From Antedon mediterranea (taxonomy: Eukaryota > Animalia > Echinodermata), in assembly GCF_964355755.1 (NCBI RefSeq), contig NC_092670.1, positions 28,260,388 to 28,324,387 on the forward strand: 64,000 nt of DNA, written 5' to 3'. The translations under genes were made by a program, and so were the position numbers. Of this stretch, positions 54,001 to 64,000 are shown in pieces. Position 1 is the stretch's first letter; the number at the start of each line of letters is the position of its first letter. Under the pieces are notes generated by a model that saw only the letters and a program-made list of their open reading frames with translations, searched no databases and was not told where the DNA came from.

Positions 54001-55512
54001 CTCTTTGATGTTTTTGTGTGAAAAGTTTTATCGAAATGCTCAAAATGGTCTAAAACGGTTTCTAATGTGATTTTAAGCACTTTGGTGTTTTTATGTTAAC
54101 AAGTTTTTTCGAAAATCACAAAATGGTCTAAAACGTCTCCAAATGTGATTTGAAGCTATTCTAAACAATTTGGTGTTTTTATGTTAACAAGTTTTTTCGA
54201 AAATCACAAATTGGTCTAAAACGTCTCCAAATGCGATTTGAAGCTATTTTAAGCACTTTGGTGTTTTTGTGTAACCAAGTTTTTTCGAAAATCACAAAAG
54301 GGTCAAAAACGTTTTTAAATACGATATTAAGCTATTTTGTGCTCTTTGATGTTTTTGTGTGAAAAGTTTTATCGAAATGCTCAAAATGGTCTAAAACGGT
54401 TTCTAATGTGATTTTAAGCACTTTGATGTTTTTATGTTAACAACTTTTTTAGAAAATCACAAAAGGTCTAAAACGTCTCCAAATGCGATTTGAAGCAATT
54501 CTAAGCACTTTGGTGTTTTTATGGTAACGAGTTTTTTTGAATATCACAAAATGGTCTAAAATGTCTCCAAATGCGATTTGAAGCTTTTCTAAGCACTTTG
54601 GTGTTTTTATGTTAACAAGTTTTTTCGAAAATCACAAAATGGTCTAAAACGTCTCCAAATGCGATTTGAAGCTATTCTGTACACTTTGCTGTTTTGTGTG
54701 AATAATTTTTGTCGAAATGCTCAAAATGGTCAAAAACGTTTTTAAATACGATATTAAGCTATTTTGTGCTCTTTGATGTTTTTGTGTGAAAAGTTTTATC
54801 GAAATGCTCAAAATGGTCTAAAACGGTTTCTAATGTGATTTTAAGCACTTTGATGTTTTTATGTTAACAACTTTTTTAGAAAATCACAAAATGGTCTAAA
54901 ACGTCTCCAAATGCGATTTGAAGCAATTCTAAGCACTTTGGTGTTTTTATGGTAACGAGTTTTTTTGAATATCACAAAATGGTCTAAAATGTCTCCAAAT
55001 GCGATTTGAAGCTTTTCTAAGCACTTTGGTGTTTTTATGGTAACGAGTTATTTCGAAAATCACAAAATGGTCTAAAACGTCTCCAAATGCGATTTGAAGC
55101 TATTCTGTACACTTTGCTGTTTTGTGTGAATAATTTTTGTCAAAATGCTCAAAATGGTCAAAAACGTTTTTAAATACTATATTAAGCTATTTTGTGCTCT
55201 TTGATGTTTTTGTGTGAAAAGTTTTATCGAAATGCTCAAAATGGTCTAAAACGGTTTCTAATGTGATTTTAAGCACTTTGATATTTTTATGTTAACAACT
55301 TTTTTAGAAAATTACAAAATGGTGTAAAACGTCTCCAAATGCGATTTGAAGCTATTCTAAGCACTTTGGTGTTTTTATGGTAACGAGTTTTTTTGAATAT
55401 CACAAAATGGTCTAAAATGTCTCCAAATTCGATTTGAAGCTTTTCTAAGCACTTTGGTGTTTTTATGTTAACAAGTTTTTTCGAAAATCACAAAATGGTC
55501 TAAAACGTCTCC
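1..55512 (+). repeat. 88-bp satellite DNA array (left arm) with variable-length higher-order repeat structure
   Basis: Consensus GAAAATCACAAAATGGTCTAAAACGTCTCCAAATGCGATTTGAAGCTATTCTAAGCACTTTGGTGTTTTTATGTTAACAAGTTTTTTC (88 bp; e.g. monomer starts at 187 and 275). It repeats head-to-tail without unique spacers. Recurrent variant monomers of 87 bp (GAAATGCTCAAAATGGTCAAAAACGTTTTT...) and 78 bp (...CGGTTTCTAATGTGATTTTAAGCAC...). The array runs off the window start. Confidence 0.98.
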
Positions 55513-55558
55513 CACAGCTGTTCCAAAAATATGAATTAAGTGCAGCGCCCCCAACGTT
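55513..55558 (+). repeat. Left (3') bipartite terminal inverted repeat: 14-bp TIR + 11-bp spacer + 21-bp inner box
   Basis: CACAGCTGTTCCAA (55513-55526), then AAGTGCAGCGCCCCCAACGTT (55538-55558). Confidence 0.85.
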
Positions 55559-56905
55559 TATAGCGTTTTATGGAGTAGCGATTCCGAAAACATATTGTAT
55601 ACAAACCACACGAGGAACCCGGAAGCAATCAAGCATAAAACGACTGTTTTTTAATAGCCAATAAAAACAAATAAAGACCGCGAAAGTCAGAAAAATAATG
55701 AATATTCATTAGAACAACCCTGGATGAAGGTGAAAAACATGTTGTCGTCGTTTTATCACGTGGATTTTAAGAGGTAATGCAATTGAAATTTGTACACCCA
55801 ACGCCAGTTTTTTTCTCAAGTGATACATTTAAAAAGTAGGTATAAATGTTGTTTTCCATATCAGTTTAAAAATAATTTTTTCTGTTGAATTCTTTGATTT
55901 AGTTGGATAGTTTAGTTATCCTTGAATGTTTTAACAAGGATCGTATTCATATTGCCTGGCCGGATTTTTTCCTATGCTAGCTTATAATAGGCTATGCCCA
56001 GGCCCCATTGCGTGGTTAAAACCAGCTGTGTAAGACTAAGACTAATGGCTGTTTATTATTAACACGTAAACATGTATATTCGGTGGGCCTGATTAATTAC
56101 TTGTTCCTGGTCCTAATTAAAAATTAGGCCTAGGCCTAAGCTTTTTTAATAATCATTCATATTGGGAGAGGAGTACAGAGTAGGCCAGGCTACAGGCCTA
56201 GCTAGGCCTATATATAGGCTAGGCTACATCATCAGCAGGTTAAAGGCTGGAAGCCTACCTAGCATGTCTTAGTCAAAGATCTGTAATATATTAATAGAAA
56301 GAAGCTATAGAGTACTGTGACATTAGATATTTAATCATAAATGCATATTTCTTTCATATTTGTATTGTATATTTATTATTTTGATATGCAATCACAATCT
56401 AAATCAGTAAATAACATCAATTTCCGTTATCAATAAATAATTATTAATATATAAACCAAATTAAAATAAAATAACTGTTTATTTTTAACACGTAAACATG
56501 TCTATTCGGGGGCCTGAGTGACAGTTGACCTGTTATAAAACTGATCAATTACTTGTTCCTGGTCCTAATTAAAAATTAGGCCTAGCCTAGGCCTAAGCTT
56601 TTTTAATAATCATTCATATTGGGAGAGAGGAGTACAGAGTAGGCCAGGTTACAGGCCTAGCTAGGCCTATACTATATATAGGCTAGGCTACATCATTAGC
56701 AGGTTAAAGGCTAGCAGCCTACCTAGCATGTCTTAGTCAAAGATCTGTAATATATTAATAGAAAGAAGCTATAGAGTACTGTGACATTAGATATTTAATC
56801 ATAAATGCATATTTCTTTCATATTTGTATTGTATATTTATTATTTTGATATGCAATCACAATCTAAATCAGTAAATAACATCAATTTCCGTTATCAATAA
56901 ATAAT

Positions 56906-57053
56906 CGCTGTGGCTAAAGATACGGTACCGTATTCTAACTTCTGTTTACTAAAGATACGGTAAAATTGCATTACGTCATAACCAGCCAATGGGGTGCTGG
57001 TACTTGTGTGACGTCATCGTATAAGGACTTTGTGGATTTTTTTTCATATCGCG
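56906..57053 (+). repeat. Left TIR of nested element
   Basis: CGCTGTGGCTAAAGATACGGTACCGTATTCTAAC...CATATCGCG; the reverse complement of 57549-57696. Confidence 0.93.
56971..57026 (+). promoter_or_regulatory. Promoter-like motif cluster within the MULE TIR (mirrored in the right TIR)
   Basis: TTACGTCA (56971-56978), AGCCAATG CCAAT box (~56984-56991), perfect CRE TGACGTCA (57009-57016) and TATAAG (57020-57025). Motif match only, no functional data. Confidence 0.4.
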
Positions 57054-57548
57054 AAAACAGTGTAGTGATCAACCGCATTTTCTTTATGCTTTATTTATCG
57101 CTATTATCGCCGTCGTGTGTGACAAAAACTAAATGTAGCCTACGTCTGTTATTATTATTGAAAAGCCATGTTGATTTTAATTCTAAAATACAGAAAACCG
57201 TTTTAAAAGAGGCCCAGGCCTACTTACTACGTACTATGGTATAACCTCATTATATGAGTTTGTTTGTGTAGGGAAAGCGGATGCCAGGCTGCATGGCCAG
57301 CTAGCTGCATATGTGTGCGCTGATTTCTGTGACTCGTCAGCCCTGGGGCTACACTGCTGTCTAAATCATAGTATTTAAGGGCCCCTTTATTGTCCGAATT
57401 TGCTTGTTGTTTATGGTCACCATTGTAAACAAAGTTTTTAAAAAATAGAGGCCTAAATAGGCCATTTGGAATCAAAATAAAACCCTCATCTGCAGGGCAC
57501 ACACATCCACGCAGCCTGGCGCCGCCGATAGGAATTCTCTACAACAGA

Positions 57549-57696
57549 CGCGATATGAACAAAAAATCCCCAAGTCCTTATACGATGACGTCACACACGT
57601 ACCAGCACCCCATTGGCTGATTATGACGTAATCCAATTTTACCGTACCTTTAGTAAACAGAAGTTAGAATACGGTACCGTATCTTTAGCCACGGCG
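57549..57696 (-). repeat. Right TIR of nested element
   Basis: CGCGATATG...GTTAGAATACGGTACCGTATCTTTAGCCACGGCG. Confidence 0.93.
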
Positions 57697-58813
57697 ATAA
57701 ATAATTATTAATATATAAACCAAATTAAAATAAAATAACTGTTTATTTTTAACACGTAAACATGTCTATTCGGGGGCCTGAGTGACAGTTGACCTGTTAT
57801 AAAACTGATTAATTACTTGTTCCTGGTCCTAATTAAAAATTAGGCCTAGCCTAGGCCTAAGCTTTTTTAATAATCATTCATATTGGGAGAGAGGAGTACA
57901 GAGTAGGCCAGGTTACAGGCCTAGCTAGGCCTATACTATATATAGGCTAGGCTACATCATTAGCAGGTTAAAGGCTAGCAGCCTACCTAGCATGTCTTAG
58001 TCAAAGATCTGTAATATATTAATAGAAAGAAGCTATAGAGTACTGTGACATTAGATATTTAATCATAAATGCATATTTCTTTCATATTTGTATTGTATAT
58101 TTATTATTTTGATATGCAATCACAATCTAAATCAGTAAATAACATCAATTTCCGTTATCAATAAATAATTATTAATATATAAACCAAATTAAAATAAAAT
58201 AACTGTTTATTTTTAACACGTAAACATGTCTATTCGGGGGCCTGAGTGACAGTTGACCTGTTATAAAACTGATTAATTACTTGTTCCTGGTCCTAATTAA
58301 AAATTAGGCCTAGCCTAGGCCTAAGCTTTTTTAATAATCATTCATATTGGGAGAGAGGAGTACAGAGTAGGCCAGGTTACAGGCCTAGCTAGGCCTATAC
58401 TATATATAGGCTAGGCTACATCATTAGCAGGTTAAAGGCTAGCAGCCTACCTAGCATGTCTTAGTCAAAGATCTGTAATATATTAATAGAAAGAAGCTAT
58501 AGAGTACTGTGACATTAGATATTTAATTATAAATGCATATTTCTTTCATATTTGTATTGTATTATATATGCAATCACAGTCTAAGTCAGTAAATAACATC
58601 AATTTCCGTTATCAATCAATAATATATATAAACCAAATTAAAATAAAATAACTTCCTAAAAATTAAATTCAATTACAATTGAATTCATATACCATTTGTT
58701 AAATATTTACAAAATGATTGTTCTAGCAATAACACAAAAAAATACTACCATTCATACAGTATACTGTACATAATAATATGCAATACTGTAACAATTAACT
58801 GAGAAATAGCAAA

Positions 58814-59023
58814 CTATTCCTCAACTTTTCTGCACTTAGTTACCGGCCTAGTTACTTCATGCTGGATCTCAGGTGAAATAAACGTCAGATGTGACTTCAT
58901 GATTTCCCACAAAACTCTTTCCATGGTACTGCTGTCGAGGAATTTATTTTTTCTAAATACCTCGTCCATTTTTGTACATAGAGGTCCAGTTTCAAATCTC
59001 TTGGTTCATACTGTAGTAGTTCG
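58814..59023 (-). pseudogene. Terminal transposase exon with nonsense codon, frameshift and internal deletion
   Basis: Acceptor TATATAG|CGA after a 92-bp AT-rich intron (59115-59024). In-frame TGA at 59008-59006, frameshift near 58942, GNH motif at 58907-58899 joined directly to a C-terminal-like segment, stop TAG at 58816-58814. Confidence 0.75.
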
Positions 59024-59115
59024 CTATATAAAATATATAAAAGAATTATGGCATTAATTTTTATAGTATTGCATGTTTTAGACATAATTTTAAAGGTGTA
59101 TAATGTAGGACTGAC

Positions 59116-59358
59116 CAAGTCTTTGACCTCTTGTTCTTTTAGATTTATTCTGTGGCCAGTCTCTGCAATCTTACTATGCTGTTTTGTCACAAGTGATACT
59201 GAGAGTTCATTTCTTAAATGCTCAAGATTCTCTTCTAAAGACTGGATTTTAATCATTGTACTTTGTAGCATGTCGATATGCTGCAGCTTCTGATTTTCTC
59301 TTTCTGCTAGATGATCACCTGAGATTAAACAATATTGGTCAACCAAATAAATGTCAAT
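59116..59358 (-). pseudogene. Transposase exon (81 codons, open, coiled-coil-like insertion region)
   Basis: Acceptor TTTTTTATGCAG|ATT, donor TTG|GTCAGT; 243 nt, phase 0-0. Heptad-like LQSTMIKIQSLEENLEHLRNEL. This is the N-terminal part of track ORF 58897..59364. Confidence 0.75.
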
Positions 59359-59611
59359 CTGCATAAAAAATGAGCATCAACATTATTATATTTTAAAAAT
59401 GTTAACTATTTCTTGTAGCAGATAATGATAATATATGGATAATTCATAGGAAAATAAGTTCCAGCCAAAGGTTTGCTTTATTATGCATAAAAATAGGATA
59501 AACAATTTTGAAATTCTATGCTCAAATGGACAATGTATATTTAAAGAGCAACTTGACCAATTGAGTTATTATGTAATGTCAATGTAAAGTTGAAACAACA
59601 TTTGAATTTAC

Positions 59612-59664
59612 CAGTCAAGATGTCAGCATCCTGTCGCATGTTGAATATTATAACATATTGACAC
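59612..59664 (-). pseudogene. Short, probably internally deleted transposase exon remnant
   Basis: Acceptor TTTTTCCAG|GTG and donor CTG|GTAAAT. It begins with Val, as expected after ...ELNR, but the expected PxLH motif is not visible. Confidence 0.45.
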
Positions 59665-59855
59665 CTGGAAAAATAGTTGATTGAGGAAATATTTAATAAA
59701 GAAAAGAGGTATATTTATAAATTACTGTAACAATTGTTTGTTTTGACAGTTATTTTATACTAACATTGTTCTTTAATATGAAGTACAAACACACATTTCA
59801 TTATTTGGAGTGTGTATTAAACTTTCTAAAGAGGTGGTTATGATTATTTACCTAC

Positions 59856-60038
59856 CCTGTTTAATTCAACGTCTACCATGTATGGCCTAACAACGCTGTG
59901 CGATATTGTTTTGCTTCTTTTTTATCACTGCCATGGTCTACAAAGACTTGTAGGCCTTGAGATATCTACAGGCTTGAGGAACATTGTTGGTTCTAATGTC
60001 ATCTTGATTACAAAAACAATAGATACAACAGTACTTTC
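59856..60038 (-). pseudogene. Transposase exon remnant with CCxxC zinc-ligand motif
   Basis: Acceptor TTTTTAAAG|GA at 60039/60038 and donor AGG|GTAGGT at 59856/59855. Frameshifts near 59950 and 59897. Confidence 0.75.
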
Positions 60039-60925
60039 CTTTAAAAATAAATCAATTTTTAAATCTACAGTACTTCAGTTTTGTGTCCAAACAAATCCAA
60101 ACAAGAGATCTAATAGCCAAAATATTAAACCATTATTATACTGTACAAATGTATTAATATTAAGGCCTGGCCCTAGCCTAGGGCTAGGCTGTGACTGTCA
60201 CTCAGTCACACCAGCTAGCCTAGAAATGCACCAGGAAAGCAATAATTATTATTATAAACACATGCCATTAATTATTTGGTAACAGTTATAATGATTACAT
60301 TTAGGATTAGGGTAATTAAAGGTTTAACTATTACGAATTTTCTATGTTTCGGCCTAGCTTCATTCTAGGCCCACATTACCGTCACGGTCATCGCGGGCGT
60401 CAACGCACTTTCTAAGCCTATCGCCAAACCGTTTTCTCGCCGATAACAATAACAATGTATAAAAGGGTTGCAAAATATGCGAGTTTTACTAAAAACTGAA
60501 CCAGGCTATATTAACAAAACTAGTATTATTTTGTTTATATAATAATGATGGACTATATTCTAGTTCGTTCTTTTTCTAAAAAAATGAATTATATCCAAAA
60601 AAAAAGTAAAGAATACAATGATATTTTCTACTTACGATTGTTTACTATTTCATTACACAGTTTATCTCAACTTCCTGGTTTATGTGCGGGAGAGTATTTC
60701 AGTAAAATGGACAATATCGTCGTTTATTTATTAATTTATAGTAAAGAAACAATAAAATATTTATTTTTTAATTGAACATACACTTTTTTTAATCGTTTAG
60801 TTTTGTATAAAATGTTTTTACTACATAAAAACTCACGATAGCAAAATTTAATTTGGCGTTCGCGAAATAATGGTTTGTAAACAAAAATTATATGTCCGCG
60901 CGACTCGGGGGGAGCCTCGTCTGCT

Positions 60926-60981
60926 AACACTGAGGGCGCTTGACTTTTTCTTATATCTTAACACTAGTTGAAACAGCTGTG
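60926..60981 (-). repeat. Right (5') bipartite terminal inverted repeat: 14-bp TIR + 21-bp spacer + 21-bp inner box
   Basis: Minus strand reads CACAGCTGTTTCAA (60981-60968), then AAGTCAAGCGCCCTCAGTGTT (60946-60926), which is 16/21 identical to the left inner box. Confidence 0.85.
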
Positions 60982-63900
60982 CTCCAAATGTGATTTGAAG
61001 CTATTCTAAACACTTTGGTGTTTTTATGTTAACAAGTTTTTTCGAAAATCACAAATTGGTCTAAAACGTCTCCAAATGCGATTTGAAGCTATTTTAAGCA
61101 CTTTGGTGTTTTTGTGTAACCAAGTTTTTTCGAAAATCACAAAAGGGTCTAAAATGTCTCAAAATGCGATTTGAAGCTATTCTGTACACTTTGATGTTTT
61201 ATTGTTAACAAGTTTTTTCGAAAGTCACAAAATGGTCTAAAACGTCTCCAAATGCGATTTGAAGCTATTATAAGCACTTTGGTGTTTTTATGTTAACAAG
61301 TTTTTTCGAAAATCACAAAATGGTGTAAAACGTCTCCAAATGCGATTTGAAGCTATTCTAAGCACTTTGGTGTTTTTATGTTAACAAGTTTTTTCGAAAA
61401 TCACAAAATGGTGTAAAACGTCTCCAAATACGATTTTAAGCTATTCTAAGCAATTTGGTGTTTTTATGTTAACAAGTTTTTTCGAAAATCACAAAATGGT
61501 CTAAAACGTCTCCAAATGCGATTTGAAGCTATTCTGTACACTTTGCTGTTTTGTGAGAATAATTTTTGTCGAAATGCTCAAAATGGTCAAAAACGTTTTT
61601 AAATACGATATTAAGCTATTTTTTGCTCTGTGATGTTTTTTTGTGAAAAGTTTTATCGAAATGCTCAAAATGGTCTAAAACGGTTTCTAATGTGATTTTA
61701 AGCACTTTGATGTTTTTATGTTAACAACTTTTTTAGAAAATTACAAAATGGTGTAAAACGTCTCCAAATGCGATTTGAAGCTATTCTAAGCAATTTGGTG
61801 TTTTTATGTTAACAAGTTTTTTCGAAAATCACAAAATGGTCTAAAACGTCTCCAAATGCGATTTGAAGCTATTCTAAGCACTTTTGTGTTTTTATGTTAA
61901 CAAGTTTTTTCGAAAATCACAAAATTGTCTAAAATGTCTCCAAATGCGATTTTAAGGTATTCTAAGCACTTTGGTGTTTTTATGTTAACAAGTTTTTTCG
62001 AAAATCACAAAATGGTCTAAAAAGTCTACAAATGCGATTTGAAGCTATTCTAAGCACTTTGGTGTTTTTATGTTAACAAGTTTTTTCGAAAATCACAAAA
62101 TGGTATAAAACGTCTCCAAATGCGATTTGAAGCTATTTTAAGCACTTTGGTGTTTTTGTGTAACCAAGTTTTTTCGAAAATCACAAAAGGGTCTAAAATG
62201 TCTCAAAATGCGATTTGAAGCTATTCTGTACACTTTGATGTTTTTATGTTAACAACTTTTTTAGAAAATCACAAAATGGTCTAAAACGTCTCCAAATACG
62301 ATTTGAAGCAATTCTAAGCACTTTGGTGTTTTTATGGTAACGAGTTTTTTTGAATATCACAAAATGGTCTAAAATGTCTCCAAATGCGATTTGAAGCTTT
62401 TCTAAGCACTTTGGTGTTTTCATGTTAACAAGTTTTTTCGAAAATCACAAAATGGTCTAAAACGTCTCCAAATGCGATTTGAAGCTATTCTGTACACTTT
62501 GCTGTTTTGTGTGAATAATTTTTGTCGAAATGCTCAAAATGGTCAAAAACGTTTTTAAATACGATATTAAGCTATTTTGTGCTCTTTGATGTTTTTGTGT
62601 GAAAAGTTTTATCGAAATGCTCAAAATGGTCTAAAACGGTTTCTAATGTGATTTTAAGCACTTTGATGTTTTTATGTTAACAACTTTTTTAGAAAATCAC
62701 AAAATGGTCTAAAACGTCTCCAAATGCGATTTGAAGCAATTCTAAGCACTTTGGTGTTTGGCGTTTTTAACGAGTTTTTTTGAATATCACAAAATGGTCT
62801 AAAATGTCTCCAAATGCGATTTGAAGCTTTTCTAAGCACTTTGGTGTTTTTATGTTTACAAGTTTTTTCGAAAATCACAAAATGGTCTAAAACGGCTCCA
62901 AATGCGATTTGAAGCTATTTTAAGCACTTTGCTGTTTTGTGTGAATAATTTTTGTCAAAATGCTCAAAATGGTCAAAAACGTTTTTAAATACTATATTAA
63001 GCTATTTTGTGCTCTTTGATGTTTTTGTGTGAAAAGTTTTATCGAAATGCTCAAAATGGTCTAAAACGGTTTCTAATGTGATTTTAAGCACTTTGATGTT
63101 TTTATGTTAAGAACTTTTTTAGAAAATTACAAAATGGTGTAAAACGTCTCCAAATGCGATTTGAAGCTATTCTAAGCAATTTGGTGTTTTTATGTTAACA
63201 AGTTTTTTCGAAAATCACAAAATGGTCTAAAACGTCTCCAAATGCGATCTGAAGCTATTCTAAGCACTTTTGTGTTTTTATGTTAACAAGTTTTTTCGAA
63301 AATCACAAAATGGTCTAAAATGTCTCCAAATGCGATTTGAAGCTTTTCTAAGCACTTTGGTGTTTTTATGTTTACAAGTTTTTTTCGAAAATCACAAAAT
63401 GGTCTAAAACGTCTCCAAATGCGATTTGAAGCTATTCTGTACACTTTGCTGTTTTGTGTGAATAATTTTTGTCAAAATGCTCAAAATGGTCAAAAACATT
63501 TTTAAAAACTATATTAAGCTATTTTGTGTTCTTTGATGTTTTTGTGTGAAAAGTTTTTTCGAAATGCTCAAAATGGTCTAAAACGGTTTCTAATGTGATT
63601 TTAAGCACTTTGATGTTTTTATGTTAACAACTTTTTTAGAAAATTACAAAATGGTCTAAAACGTCTCCAAATGCGATTTGAAGCTATTCTAAGCACTTTG
63701 GTGTTTTTATGGTAATTTATTTCGAAAATCACAAAATGGTCTAAAACATCTCCAAATGCGATTTTAAGCTATTCTAAGCACTTTGGTGTTTTTATGTTAA
63801 CAAGTTTTTTCGAAAATCACAAAAATAGTCTAAAACGTCTCCAAATGCGATTTGAAGCTATTCTAAGCACTTTGGTGTTTTTATGTTAACAAGTTTTTTC

Positions 63901-64000
63901 GAAAATCACAAAATGGTGTAAAACGTCTCCAAATGCGATTTGAAGCTATTGTAAGCACTTTGGTGTTTTTATGTTAACAAGTTTTTTTGAAAATCACAAA
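60982..64000 (+). repeat. 88-bp satellite DNA array (right arm), same family and orientation
   Basis: Resumes at CTCCAAATGTGATTTGAAGCTATTCTAAACAC, in exact register with the monomer broken at 55512, and runs off the window end. Confidence 0.98.

What the first reader, a model, noticed from the sequence alone, without database searches (positions are those of the whole stretch)
55513..60981. RAG1/Transib-related transposon with asymmetric bipartite ends offset by exactly one helical turn (12/23-RSS-like geometry)
Seen: both ends start CACAGCTGTTYCAA, whose first 5 nt equal the RSS heptamer CACAG. Both carry an inner box AAGTnnAGCGCCCYCARYGTT. The box starts at position 26 from the left end (55538) and position 36 from the right end (60946), giving non-homologous spacers of 11 and 21 bp. 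Known: V(D)J RSSs have heptamer and nonamer separated by 12 or 23 bp (about one turn apart), ProtoRAG has asymmetric bipartite TIRs with 5-bp TSDs, and Chapaev elements have CAC termini with 4-bp TSDs. Inference: this family may enforce asymmetric end pairing by one-turn/two-turn spacing, a parallel or relative of the 12/23 rule outside RAG/ProtoRAG. I cannot tell whether this has already been described.
Basis: partly seen in the sequence, partly recalled or inferred. Interest (0 to 1): 0.88.

Follow-up and report, generated by a model that had tools for sequence, protein, structure and literature searches.

The report
Chapaev transposon with 12/23-like lopsided ends
This is a broken jumping gene, likely of the Chapaev group that is related to the antibody-gene-shuffling enzyme RAG1, whose two ends carry the same inner signal 10 bases apart in position, a layout already known from RAG's closer relatives and likely used by the transposase to grip the ends, although this is untested.

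Summary
55513-60981 is a 5,469-bp insertion in an 88-bp satellite, with a 4-bp target duplication and 14-bp CAC termini. A 21-bp inner box starts at position 26 (left) and 36 (right); 6 of 3,000 shuffles match it as well. Contigs from three organisms keep the left offset without gaps; the right offset stays within about 1 bp, even in a diverged subfamily, so it is not a private indel. The element encodes no working transposase. Its remnants match a crinoid protein whose motifs and the 4-bp duplication point to Chapaev, not RAGL or Transib. The box is not an RSS nonamer, and no pairing rule is shown. New is only that a Chapaev-type element shares the layout; I found no paper saying so, but could not see Repbase Reports. 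The scan noted a similar idea once before, on a sea-urchin Transib, where it was judged copy damage.

The parts
55509..55512 (+). left copy of the 4-bp target site duplication (CTCC)
55513..55526 (+). left terminal repeat, 14 bp; this is the 3' end relative to the transposase remnants
55527..55537 (+). short spacer, 11 bp
   Evidence: no indel listed in laid contigs
55538..55558 (+). left inner box, 21 bp, starting at position 26
56049..58653 (+). internal array of about four 464-bp units, non-coding filler
56906..57696 (.). separate nested 791-bp element with long inverted ends and a 9-bp duplication (Mutator-like by recalled rule)
58817..58912 (-). remnant of the transposase C-terminus (20 of 32 identical to P0002 residues 187-217)
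58899..58999 (-). frameshifted transposase remnant (P0002 residues 6-24, 10 of 19; residues 25-39, 15 of 15); deletion junction near 58898
59116..59318 (-). probable further exon remnant, coiled-coil-like; no homologue found
   Evidence: exon limits read from the sequence
59611..59664 (-). probable small exon remnant
   Evidence: sequence; joints in run X5, weak
60926..60946 (-). right inner box, 21 bp, starting at position 36
60947..60967 (-). long spacer, 21 bp
60968..60981 (-). right terminal repeat, 14 bp; 5' end relative to the transposase remnants
60982..60985 (+). right copy of the 4-bp target site duplication (CTCC)

Best explanation
This is a non-autonomous, internally deleted DNA transposon, likely of the Chapaev group, whose ends each have a 14-bp terminal repeat and a 21-bp inner box set 10 bp further in at one end, and the box likely serves as a second transposase contact kept on the same helical face. 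Shown: boundaries, 4-bp duplication, box, offsets, loss of the catalytic part, family-wide offsets. Inferred: a transposase supplied in trans by a longer relative cuts at CAC and grips terminal repeat plus box; adding one turn at one end keeps the box on the same side of the helix, so one dimer can hold a long and a short end. Inferred and weaker: this favours long-short pairing as a preference, as measured for ProtoRAG, rather than a strict 12/23 rule.
For: Box beats shuffles (6 of 3,000). Left end: 6 of 6 listed contig pieces that span terminus to box keep the register (4 with no gap; 2 with one gap, and the only indel listed lies behind the box at 55559), including pieces with 6-8 other letters in 46-72 bases; 15 further pieces were not shown. 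Right end: the two best-supported spacer indels are +1 (60951) and -1 (60961) at near-equal depth in X1 (1337, 1360) and X8 (1850, 2149), which likely cancel; one X8 contig has a strongly diverged spacer only 1 bp shorter with the box kept; other subfamilies share only the last ~63 bp. Five different left flanks and one different right flank show several insertions. Protein: one hit, P0002, E 2e-6; it has the H(4)H motif and a catalytic-type glutamate and by eye sides with Chapaev3 Garfield against RAG1 and Transib; nearest named Atlas clusters are RAG1 ZnH2 at 0.90, a lead. Loose ends at 58898 in X1 and X8 continue with the next six residues of P0002 (read by eye), so less-deleted relatives exist. 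ProtoRAG prefers asymmetric ends and has rigid spacer lengths (PMC8289069).
Against: No binding or cleavage data. The laid contigs are close kin from three organisms, so the conservation is a few lineages, not many independent events; full end pairs of single copies were not seen. In X5 the +1 is listed without the -1, and some -1 depth has no matching +1, so 20- and 22-bp spacers probably occur (79 indel rows not shown). An offset of 10 +/- 1 is a post-hoc target. The Chapaev call rests on one 217-residue fragment, by-eye motifs and TSD length; no Pfam or PDB sequence hit, no tree, and TSD length is labile in Transib. Invertebrate RAGL is argued to be largely insensitive to asymmetry (PMC7204232).
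Confidence: 0.55

Rival explanations
1. The long and short ends enforce a strict pairing rule like 12/23: cleavage needs one 11-bp and one 21-bp end, read by a hinged dimeric domain, and the rule is inherited from the ancestor of Chapaev, Transib and RAG.
For: Same 9-11 bp difference as RSS, Transib, AanRAGL and PflRAGL-A. On the long end the best nonamer-like 9-mer (6 of 9) sits exactly 23 bp behind the heptamer; about 2% of interior 9-mers score that well (55 and 62 of 2,712).
Against: The short end has no nonamer-like tract (3 of 9). The box runs 17 bp past the nonamer position and is GC-rich. The long end is 5' of the transposase here, whereas the five Transib families have the short end 5'. 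RAG1 alone shows no 12/23 preference according to a review (PMC8355894), and no RAG2-like partner is known for Chapaev (recalled).
Confidence: 0.2
2. The box is what is left of a once longer symmetric inverted repeat; a 10-bp indel arose once in a founder and was copied passively, with no selection on spacing.
For: All ends seen are related, and kin share inherited indels. MAFFT can align the short spacer with the inner half of the long one. An earlier scan note judged a similar asymmetry to be damage.
Against: Spacers have diverged to chance level between the ends while flanking blocks kept 13 of 14 and 16 of 21; a diverged subfamily keeps box and length within 1 bp, and shares nothing inward of 60918.
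Confidence: 0.15
3. The box is a site for a host DNA-binding protein (as YY1 binds ProtoRAG ends) and its position is only loosely fixed.
For: Host-factor binding to ProtoRAG TIRs is in print (PMC7481187, seen only as search listing and start of abstract). The GC-rich core resembles one half of the CTCF consensus (recalled, not tested).
Against: The box occurs only at the two ends, inverted, at near-fixed distances, as expected of a transposase site; the other half of the recalled consensus is absent.
Confidence: 0.1

Closest known systems
Chapaev DNA transposons (Kapitonov and Jurka 2007, not seen; hallmarks as given in PMC4079192 and PMC4411706)
   Same: CAC...GTG termini, 3-4 bp TSD, H(4)H motif in the related protein, non-autonomous deletion derivative
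   Different: bipartite ends with a 10-bp offset were not found described for Chapaev in the papers I could search; the published end alignments I saw show only ~30-35 bp; not Chapaev3 (TWA, 3 bp)
Transib5, Transib2_AG, TransibN1-3_AG (PMC1131882) and subgroup I Transibs (PMC9435367)
   Same: CAC termini, bipartite ends, about one turn of asymmetry
   Different: 5-bp TSD, A-rich nonamer, short end 5'; different motif around the catalytic glutamate
AanRAGL of Aureococcus (PMC9435367)
   Same: 13-bp terminal block plus a non-nonamer inner block, spacers differing by 9 bp (4/13): the closest layout
   Different: 5-bp TSD, RAG1L and RAG2L genes, shorter spacers and box
PflRAGL-A (bioRxiv 10.1101/2023.08.20.553239), ProtoRAG (PMC8289069) and V(D)J RSS
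   Same: heptamer-like terminus, inner element, length asymmetry (10 bp; 27/31; 12/23)
   Different: 5-bp TSD, RAG2L partner, AT-rich nonamer in RAGL-A and RSS; function measured for ProtoRAG and RAG only

Membership tests
Chapaev | 5'-CAC ... GTG-3' termini | tested here: met
   definition
Chapaev | 3-4 bp target site duplication | tested here: met
   4 bp by empty-site test, one insertion
Chapaev | H(4)H motif and catalytic glutamate of the CMC/CMCT core | tested here: inconclusive
   deleted in the window copy; present in the relative P0002, Chapaev3-like by eye
Chapaev | N-terminal Chapa zinc finger | not testable with these tools
   no such region seen in the element's six frames; P0002 is a C-terminal fragment
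Chapaev | transposase groups with Chapaev in a tree | not testable with these tools
   no Chapaev reference proteins could be fetched; only one homologue
Chapaev3 | 3-bp TWA duplication | tested here: not met
   CTCC, 4 bp; definition
Transib | 5-bp duplication | tested here: not met
   exceptions of 2-3 bp are reported
Transib | NDGNT-like and E..E..N motifs as in the Transib proteins read | tested here: not met
   P0002, by eye
RAGL / ProtoRAG | RAG1L plus RAG2L genes | tested here: inconclusive
   no RAG2-like frame in the element, but the element is deleted
RAGL / ProtoRAG | 5-bp duplication | tested here: not met
   definition
RSS 12/23 system | A-rich nonamer 12 and 23 bp behind the heptamer | tested here: not met
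   6 of 9 at 23 bp on the long end, 3 of 9 at 12-13 bp on the short end
RSS 12/23 system | cleavage needs an unlike pair of ends | not testable with these tools
   needs biochemistry

The most novel reading that the evidence does not exclude
Chapaev transposons, the outgroup to Transib and RAG, use a one-turn long/short end code with their own GC-rich box and without RAG2, so asymmetric end pairing is older than the Transib/RAG split and the 12/23 rule is a late re-use of it.
Probability: 0.2. Interest if true: 0.7.

Novelty: new variant of a known kind. Interest (0 to 1): 0.4.

Why it matters
The origin of the 12/23 rule is debated: current models place asymmetric ends in the common ancestor of Transib and RAGL. 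A Chapaev-type family with the same one-turn offset but a different inner box would move that trait one node deeper or show that it evolves repeatedly. It also offers a test: no Chapaev transposase has been assayed in the passages I read (one search says such validation is lacking for the Chapa domain), and relatives that keep the deleted part exist in the same organisms. The step is modest, because the layout itself is known and this copy is dead.

Tried and rejected
No whole genome is held for this window, so copies could not be collected end to end. Protein searches with single-frame remnants found nothing: 58817-59005, 59116-59319 (0 of 11 candidates at E<=10), Pfam on 11, 4 and 1 pieces gave only sub-threshold coiled-coil hits or none, PDB none. 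(first piece) and 61 used a wrong frame and say nothing about the YHG motif; repeated. Pattern scans for terminus plus box gave 1 viral and 22 metagenome loci, all judged chance: GC-rich, scattered offsets, no BLAST match to the element. P0002 found no related locus in viral contigs and 1 weak bacterial match of 25 candidates (24 residues, ignored) in prokaryote genomes. The single-sequence fold of P0002 was unusable (pLDDT 39), so no fold search was run. Rfam: 0 hits. Run X17 gave no cover of the left end (no proof of absence). No RNA holder listed. Contig depth was not used as copy number. Motif searches in four papers' supplements found no Chapaev core sequence other than Garfield. Earlier-finding look-ups by sequence, place and words were empty except one. 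Rejected: private 10-bp indel; Chapaev3, Transib and RAGL membership on TSD and motifs; chance origin of the box.
Full report
What is there. The window is an 88-bp satellite (58-55512, about 640 units; 60982-64000, about 35 units) with one 5,469-bp insertion at 55513-60981. Removing the insertion and exactly 4 bases restores a 60-mer found intact elsewhere in the satellite with 0 mismatches; removing 3 leaves 3 and any other number from 0 to 8 leaves 9 or more. The target duplication is therefore CTCC, 4 bp. The ends agree at 13 of 14 terminal bases and share a 21-bp box at positions 26 and 36 (16 of 21 identical). Six of 3,000 dinucleotide shuffles reach 16 at any offset, and the box occurs nowhere else in the window at up to 6 mismatches. 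The spacers (11, 21 bp) are no more alike than shuffles.

Interior. Half of the element is an array of about four 464-bp units (56049-58653) holding a separate 791-bp element with a 9-bp duplication. No frame of 110 residues or more looks like a transposase. On the minus strand lie exon remnants. A 44-residue reading of 58872-59005 found 1 of 1 candidate, P0002, a 217-residue uncharacterised protein of the crinoid Antedon mediterranea (E 2e-6). P0002 residues 6-24, 25-39 and 187-217 match the window at 58999-58943, 58943-58899 and 58912-58817 (10 of 19, 15 of 15, 20 of 32). Residues 40-186 have no counterpart, so the copy has a frameshift and a deletion that removes the histidine pair and the catalytic-type glutamate. 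It cannot move itself.

Which family. P0002 reads YHGKSFVGNH ... KLHMLEHH ... AEQGGELIH. The Chapaev3 transposase Garfield has GVFVGP ... KVHMLHAH ... SEEQGQRFH; RAG1 has RMNGNF ... FHKTLAH ... SEGNESGN; Transibs have NDGNT ... HKVLLH ... SEEAQEARN. By eye P0002 sides with Chapaev. The ESM Atlas gives unnamed eukaryotic clusters at 0.97 and RAG1 ZnH2 clusters at 0.90 as nearest named ones, a lead only. CAC termini and 3-4 bp duplications are the stated Chapaev hallmarks; RAGL and canonical Transib make 5 bp, Chapaev3 makes TWA. I put Chapaev at about 0.85; no tree could be built, Pfam and PDB gave 0 hits, and TSD length varies within Transib. Chapaev is placed as a distant clade of the Transib superfamily in PMC4411706.

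Is the offset a family trait? Of 18 runs listed I laid 4 on the right part (X1, X5, X8, X11) and 4 on the left end (X1, X8, X11, X17; X17 gave no cover). Left end: 6 listed pieces run from the terminus through the box; 4 have no gap, 2 have one gap, and the only indel listed is behind the box at 55559; three pieces differ at 6-8 letters; 15 pieces were not shown. Five unlike flanks lie before the left end. Right end: +1 at 60951 and -1 at 60961 have near-equal depth in X1 and X8 and likely lie in the same contigs, leaving 21 bp; this is inferred from depths, not seen in one record. Against a rigid length, X5 lists the +1 without the -1, X1 and X8 have some -1 depth in excess, and 79 indel rows were not shown. 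One X8 contig keeps the box but has a strongly diverged spacer 1 bp shorter; contigs in X1, X8 and X11 share only the part from about 60918 outward. So the asymmetry is not private to this copy and is about 9-11 bp. These are related lineages, single ends, and not a sample of independent families.

How it likely works. By established cut-and-paste chemistry of the RAG/Transib group (knowledge, not tested here), a transposase dimer supplied in trans binds both ends, cuts at CAC and inserts with a staggered cut, here of 4 bp. The box, inverted, unique to the ends and conserved beyond its spacer, is most simply a second contact. A 10-bp shift keeps it on the same helical face, so a hinged domain could hold a long and a short end together, as the RAG1 nonamer-binding dimer does. 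Whether that gives a preference (ProtoRAG), a strict rule (RAG), or nothing (argued for protostome RAGL) is open; I give 0.55 to a phased second contact with at most a preference, 0.2 to a strict rule, 0.15 to a neutral founder indel, 0.1 to a host-factor site. One point for the strict reading: on the long end the best nonamer-like 9-mer (6 of 9) lies exactly 23 bp behind the heptamer, a score reached by about 2% of interior 9-mers; the short end has none (3 of 9). The long end is 5' of the transposase remnants, the reverse of the five asymmetric Transib families.

What is known. Kapitonov and Jurka 2005 state that several Transib families have RSS12- and RSS23-like ends and that the 12/23 rule can be derived from them (PMC1131882; passages and section 9). 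Tao et al. 2022 report asymmetric ends in all subgroup I Transibs and, in AanRAGL, a 13-bp and a 10-bp block separated by 4/13 bp (PMC9435367; passages; supplement word searches). PflRAGL-A has a 10-bp asymmetry (10.1101/2023.08.20.553239; passages; supplements not seen). Also read as passages: PMC8355894, PMC4411706 (supplement 5 part 1 of 2; search), PMC3014272, 10.64898/2026.08.26.747230 (34), PMC4079192 (abstract 38, passages 41, supplement parts 1-2 of 3), PMC7204232 (supplement search 102), 10.64898/2026.01.24.700457 (56), PMC12730594 (search 90), PMC8289069. For Chapaev I found no statement of asymmetric bipartite ends: searches (29 papers; 2; 17; 12; 0; 0; 0), most seen as listings only. 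The Repbase Reports that define Chapaev and Yuan and Wessler 2011 were not seen and may bear on this; published Chapaev end alignments that I saw stop at about 35 bp.

Verdict. A real, family-wide feature of a dead Chapaev-type element. The layout is known in the sister clades, so this is a new variant of a known kind; interest 0.4. If a survey of Chapaev families and an assay showed a long/short rule, it would move the root of the 12/23 geometry one node deeper (probability 0.2, interest 0.7).

Noticed in passing
window 56906-57696: Nested 791-bp non-coding element with about 148-bp inverted ends and a 9-bp duplication (ATAAATAAT); sibling 464-bp units show the empty site. Mutator-like MITE by recalled rule.
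   Followed up: partly
window 56049-58653: About four 464-bp tandem units inside the transposon, 99-100% alike for the inner ones, rich in short palindromes; a similar palindrome-rich patch lies at 60159-60190.
   Followed up: no
window 58-55512 and 60982-64000: 88-bp satellite of about 675 units with variant unit types and steady strand skew; possibly centromeric or a higher-order repeat.
   Followed up: no
window 59662-59854 and 59294-59610: Contigs of run X5 (RNA is a guess) skip these stretches, one with minus-strand intron ends; a weak hint that the family or a longer relative is spliced (short sides).
   Followed up: partly
window 55691-55736: Another repeat family in X1, X8 and X11 shares only this 46-bp internal patch, about 180 bp from the left end, with unlike sequence on both sides: a possible further conserved subterminal motif.
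   Followed up: no
window 55548-55556 and 60928-60937: The 3' part of the box loosely resembles the 10-bp inner block printed for AanRAGL (6-7 of 10 by eye); probably chance.
   Followed up: no
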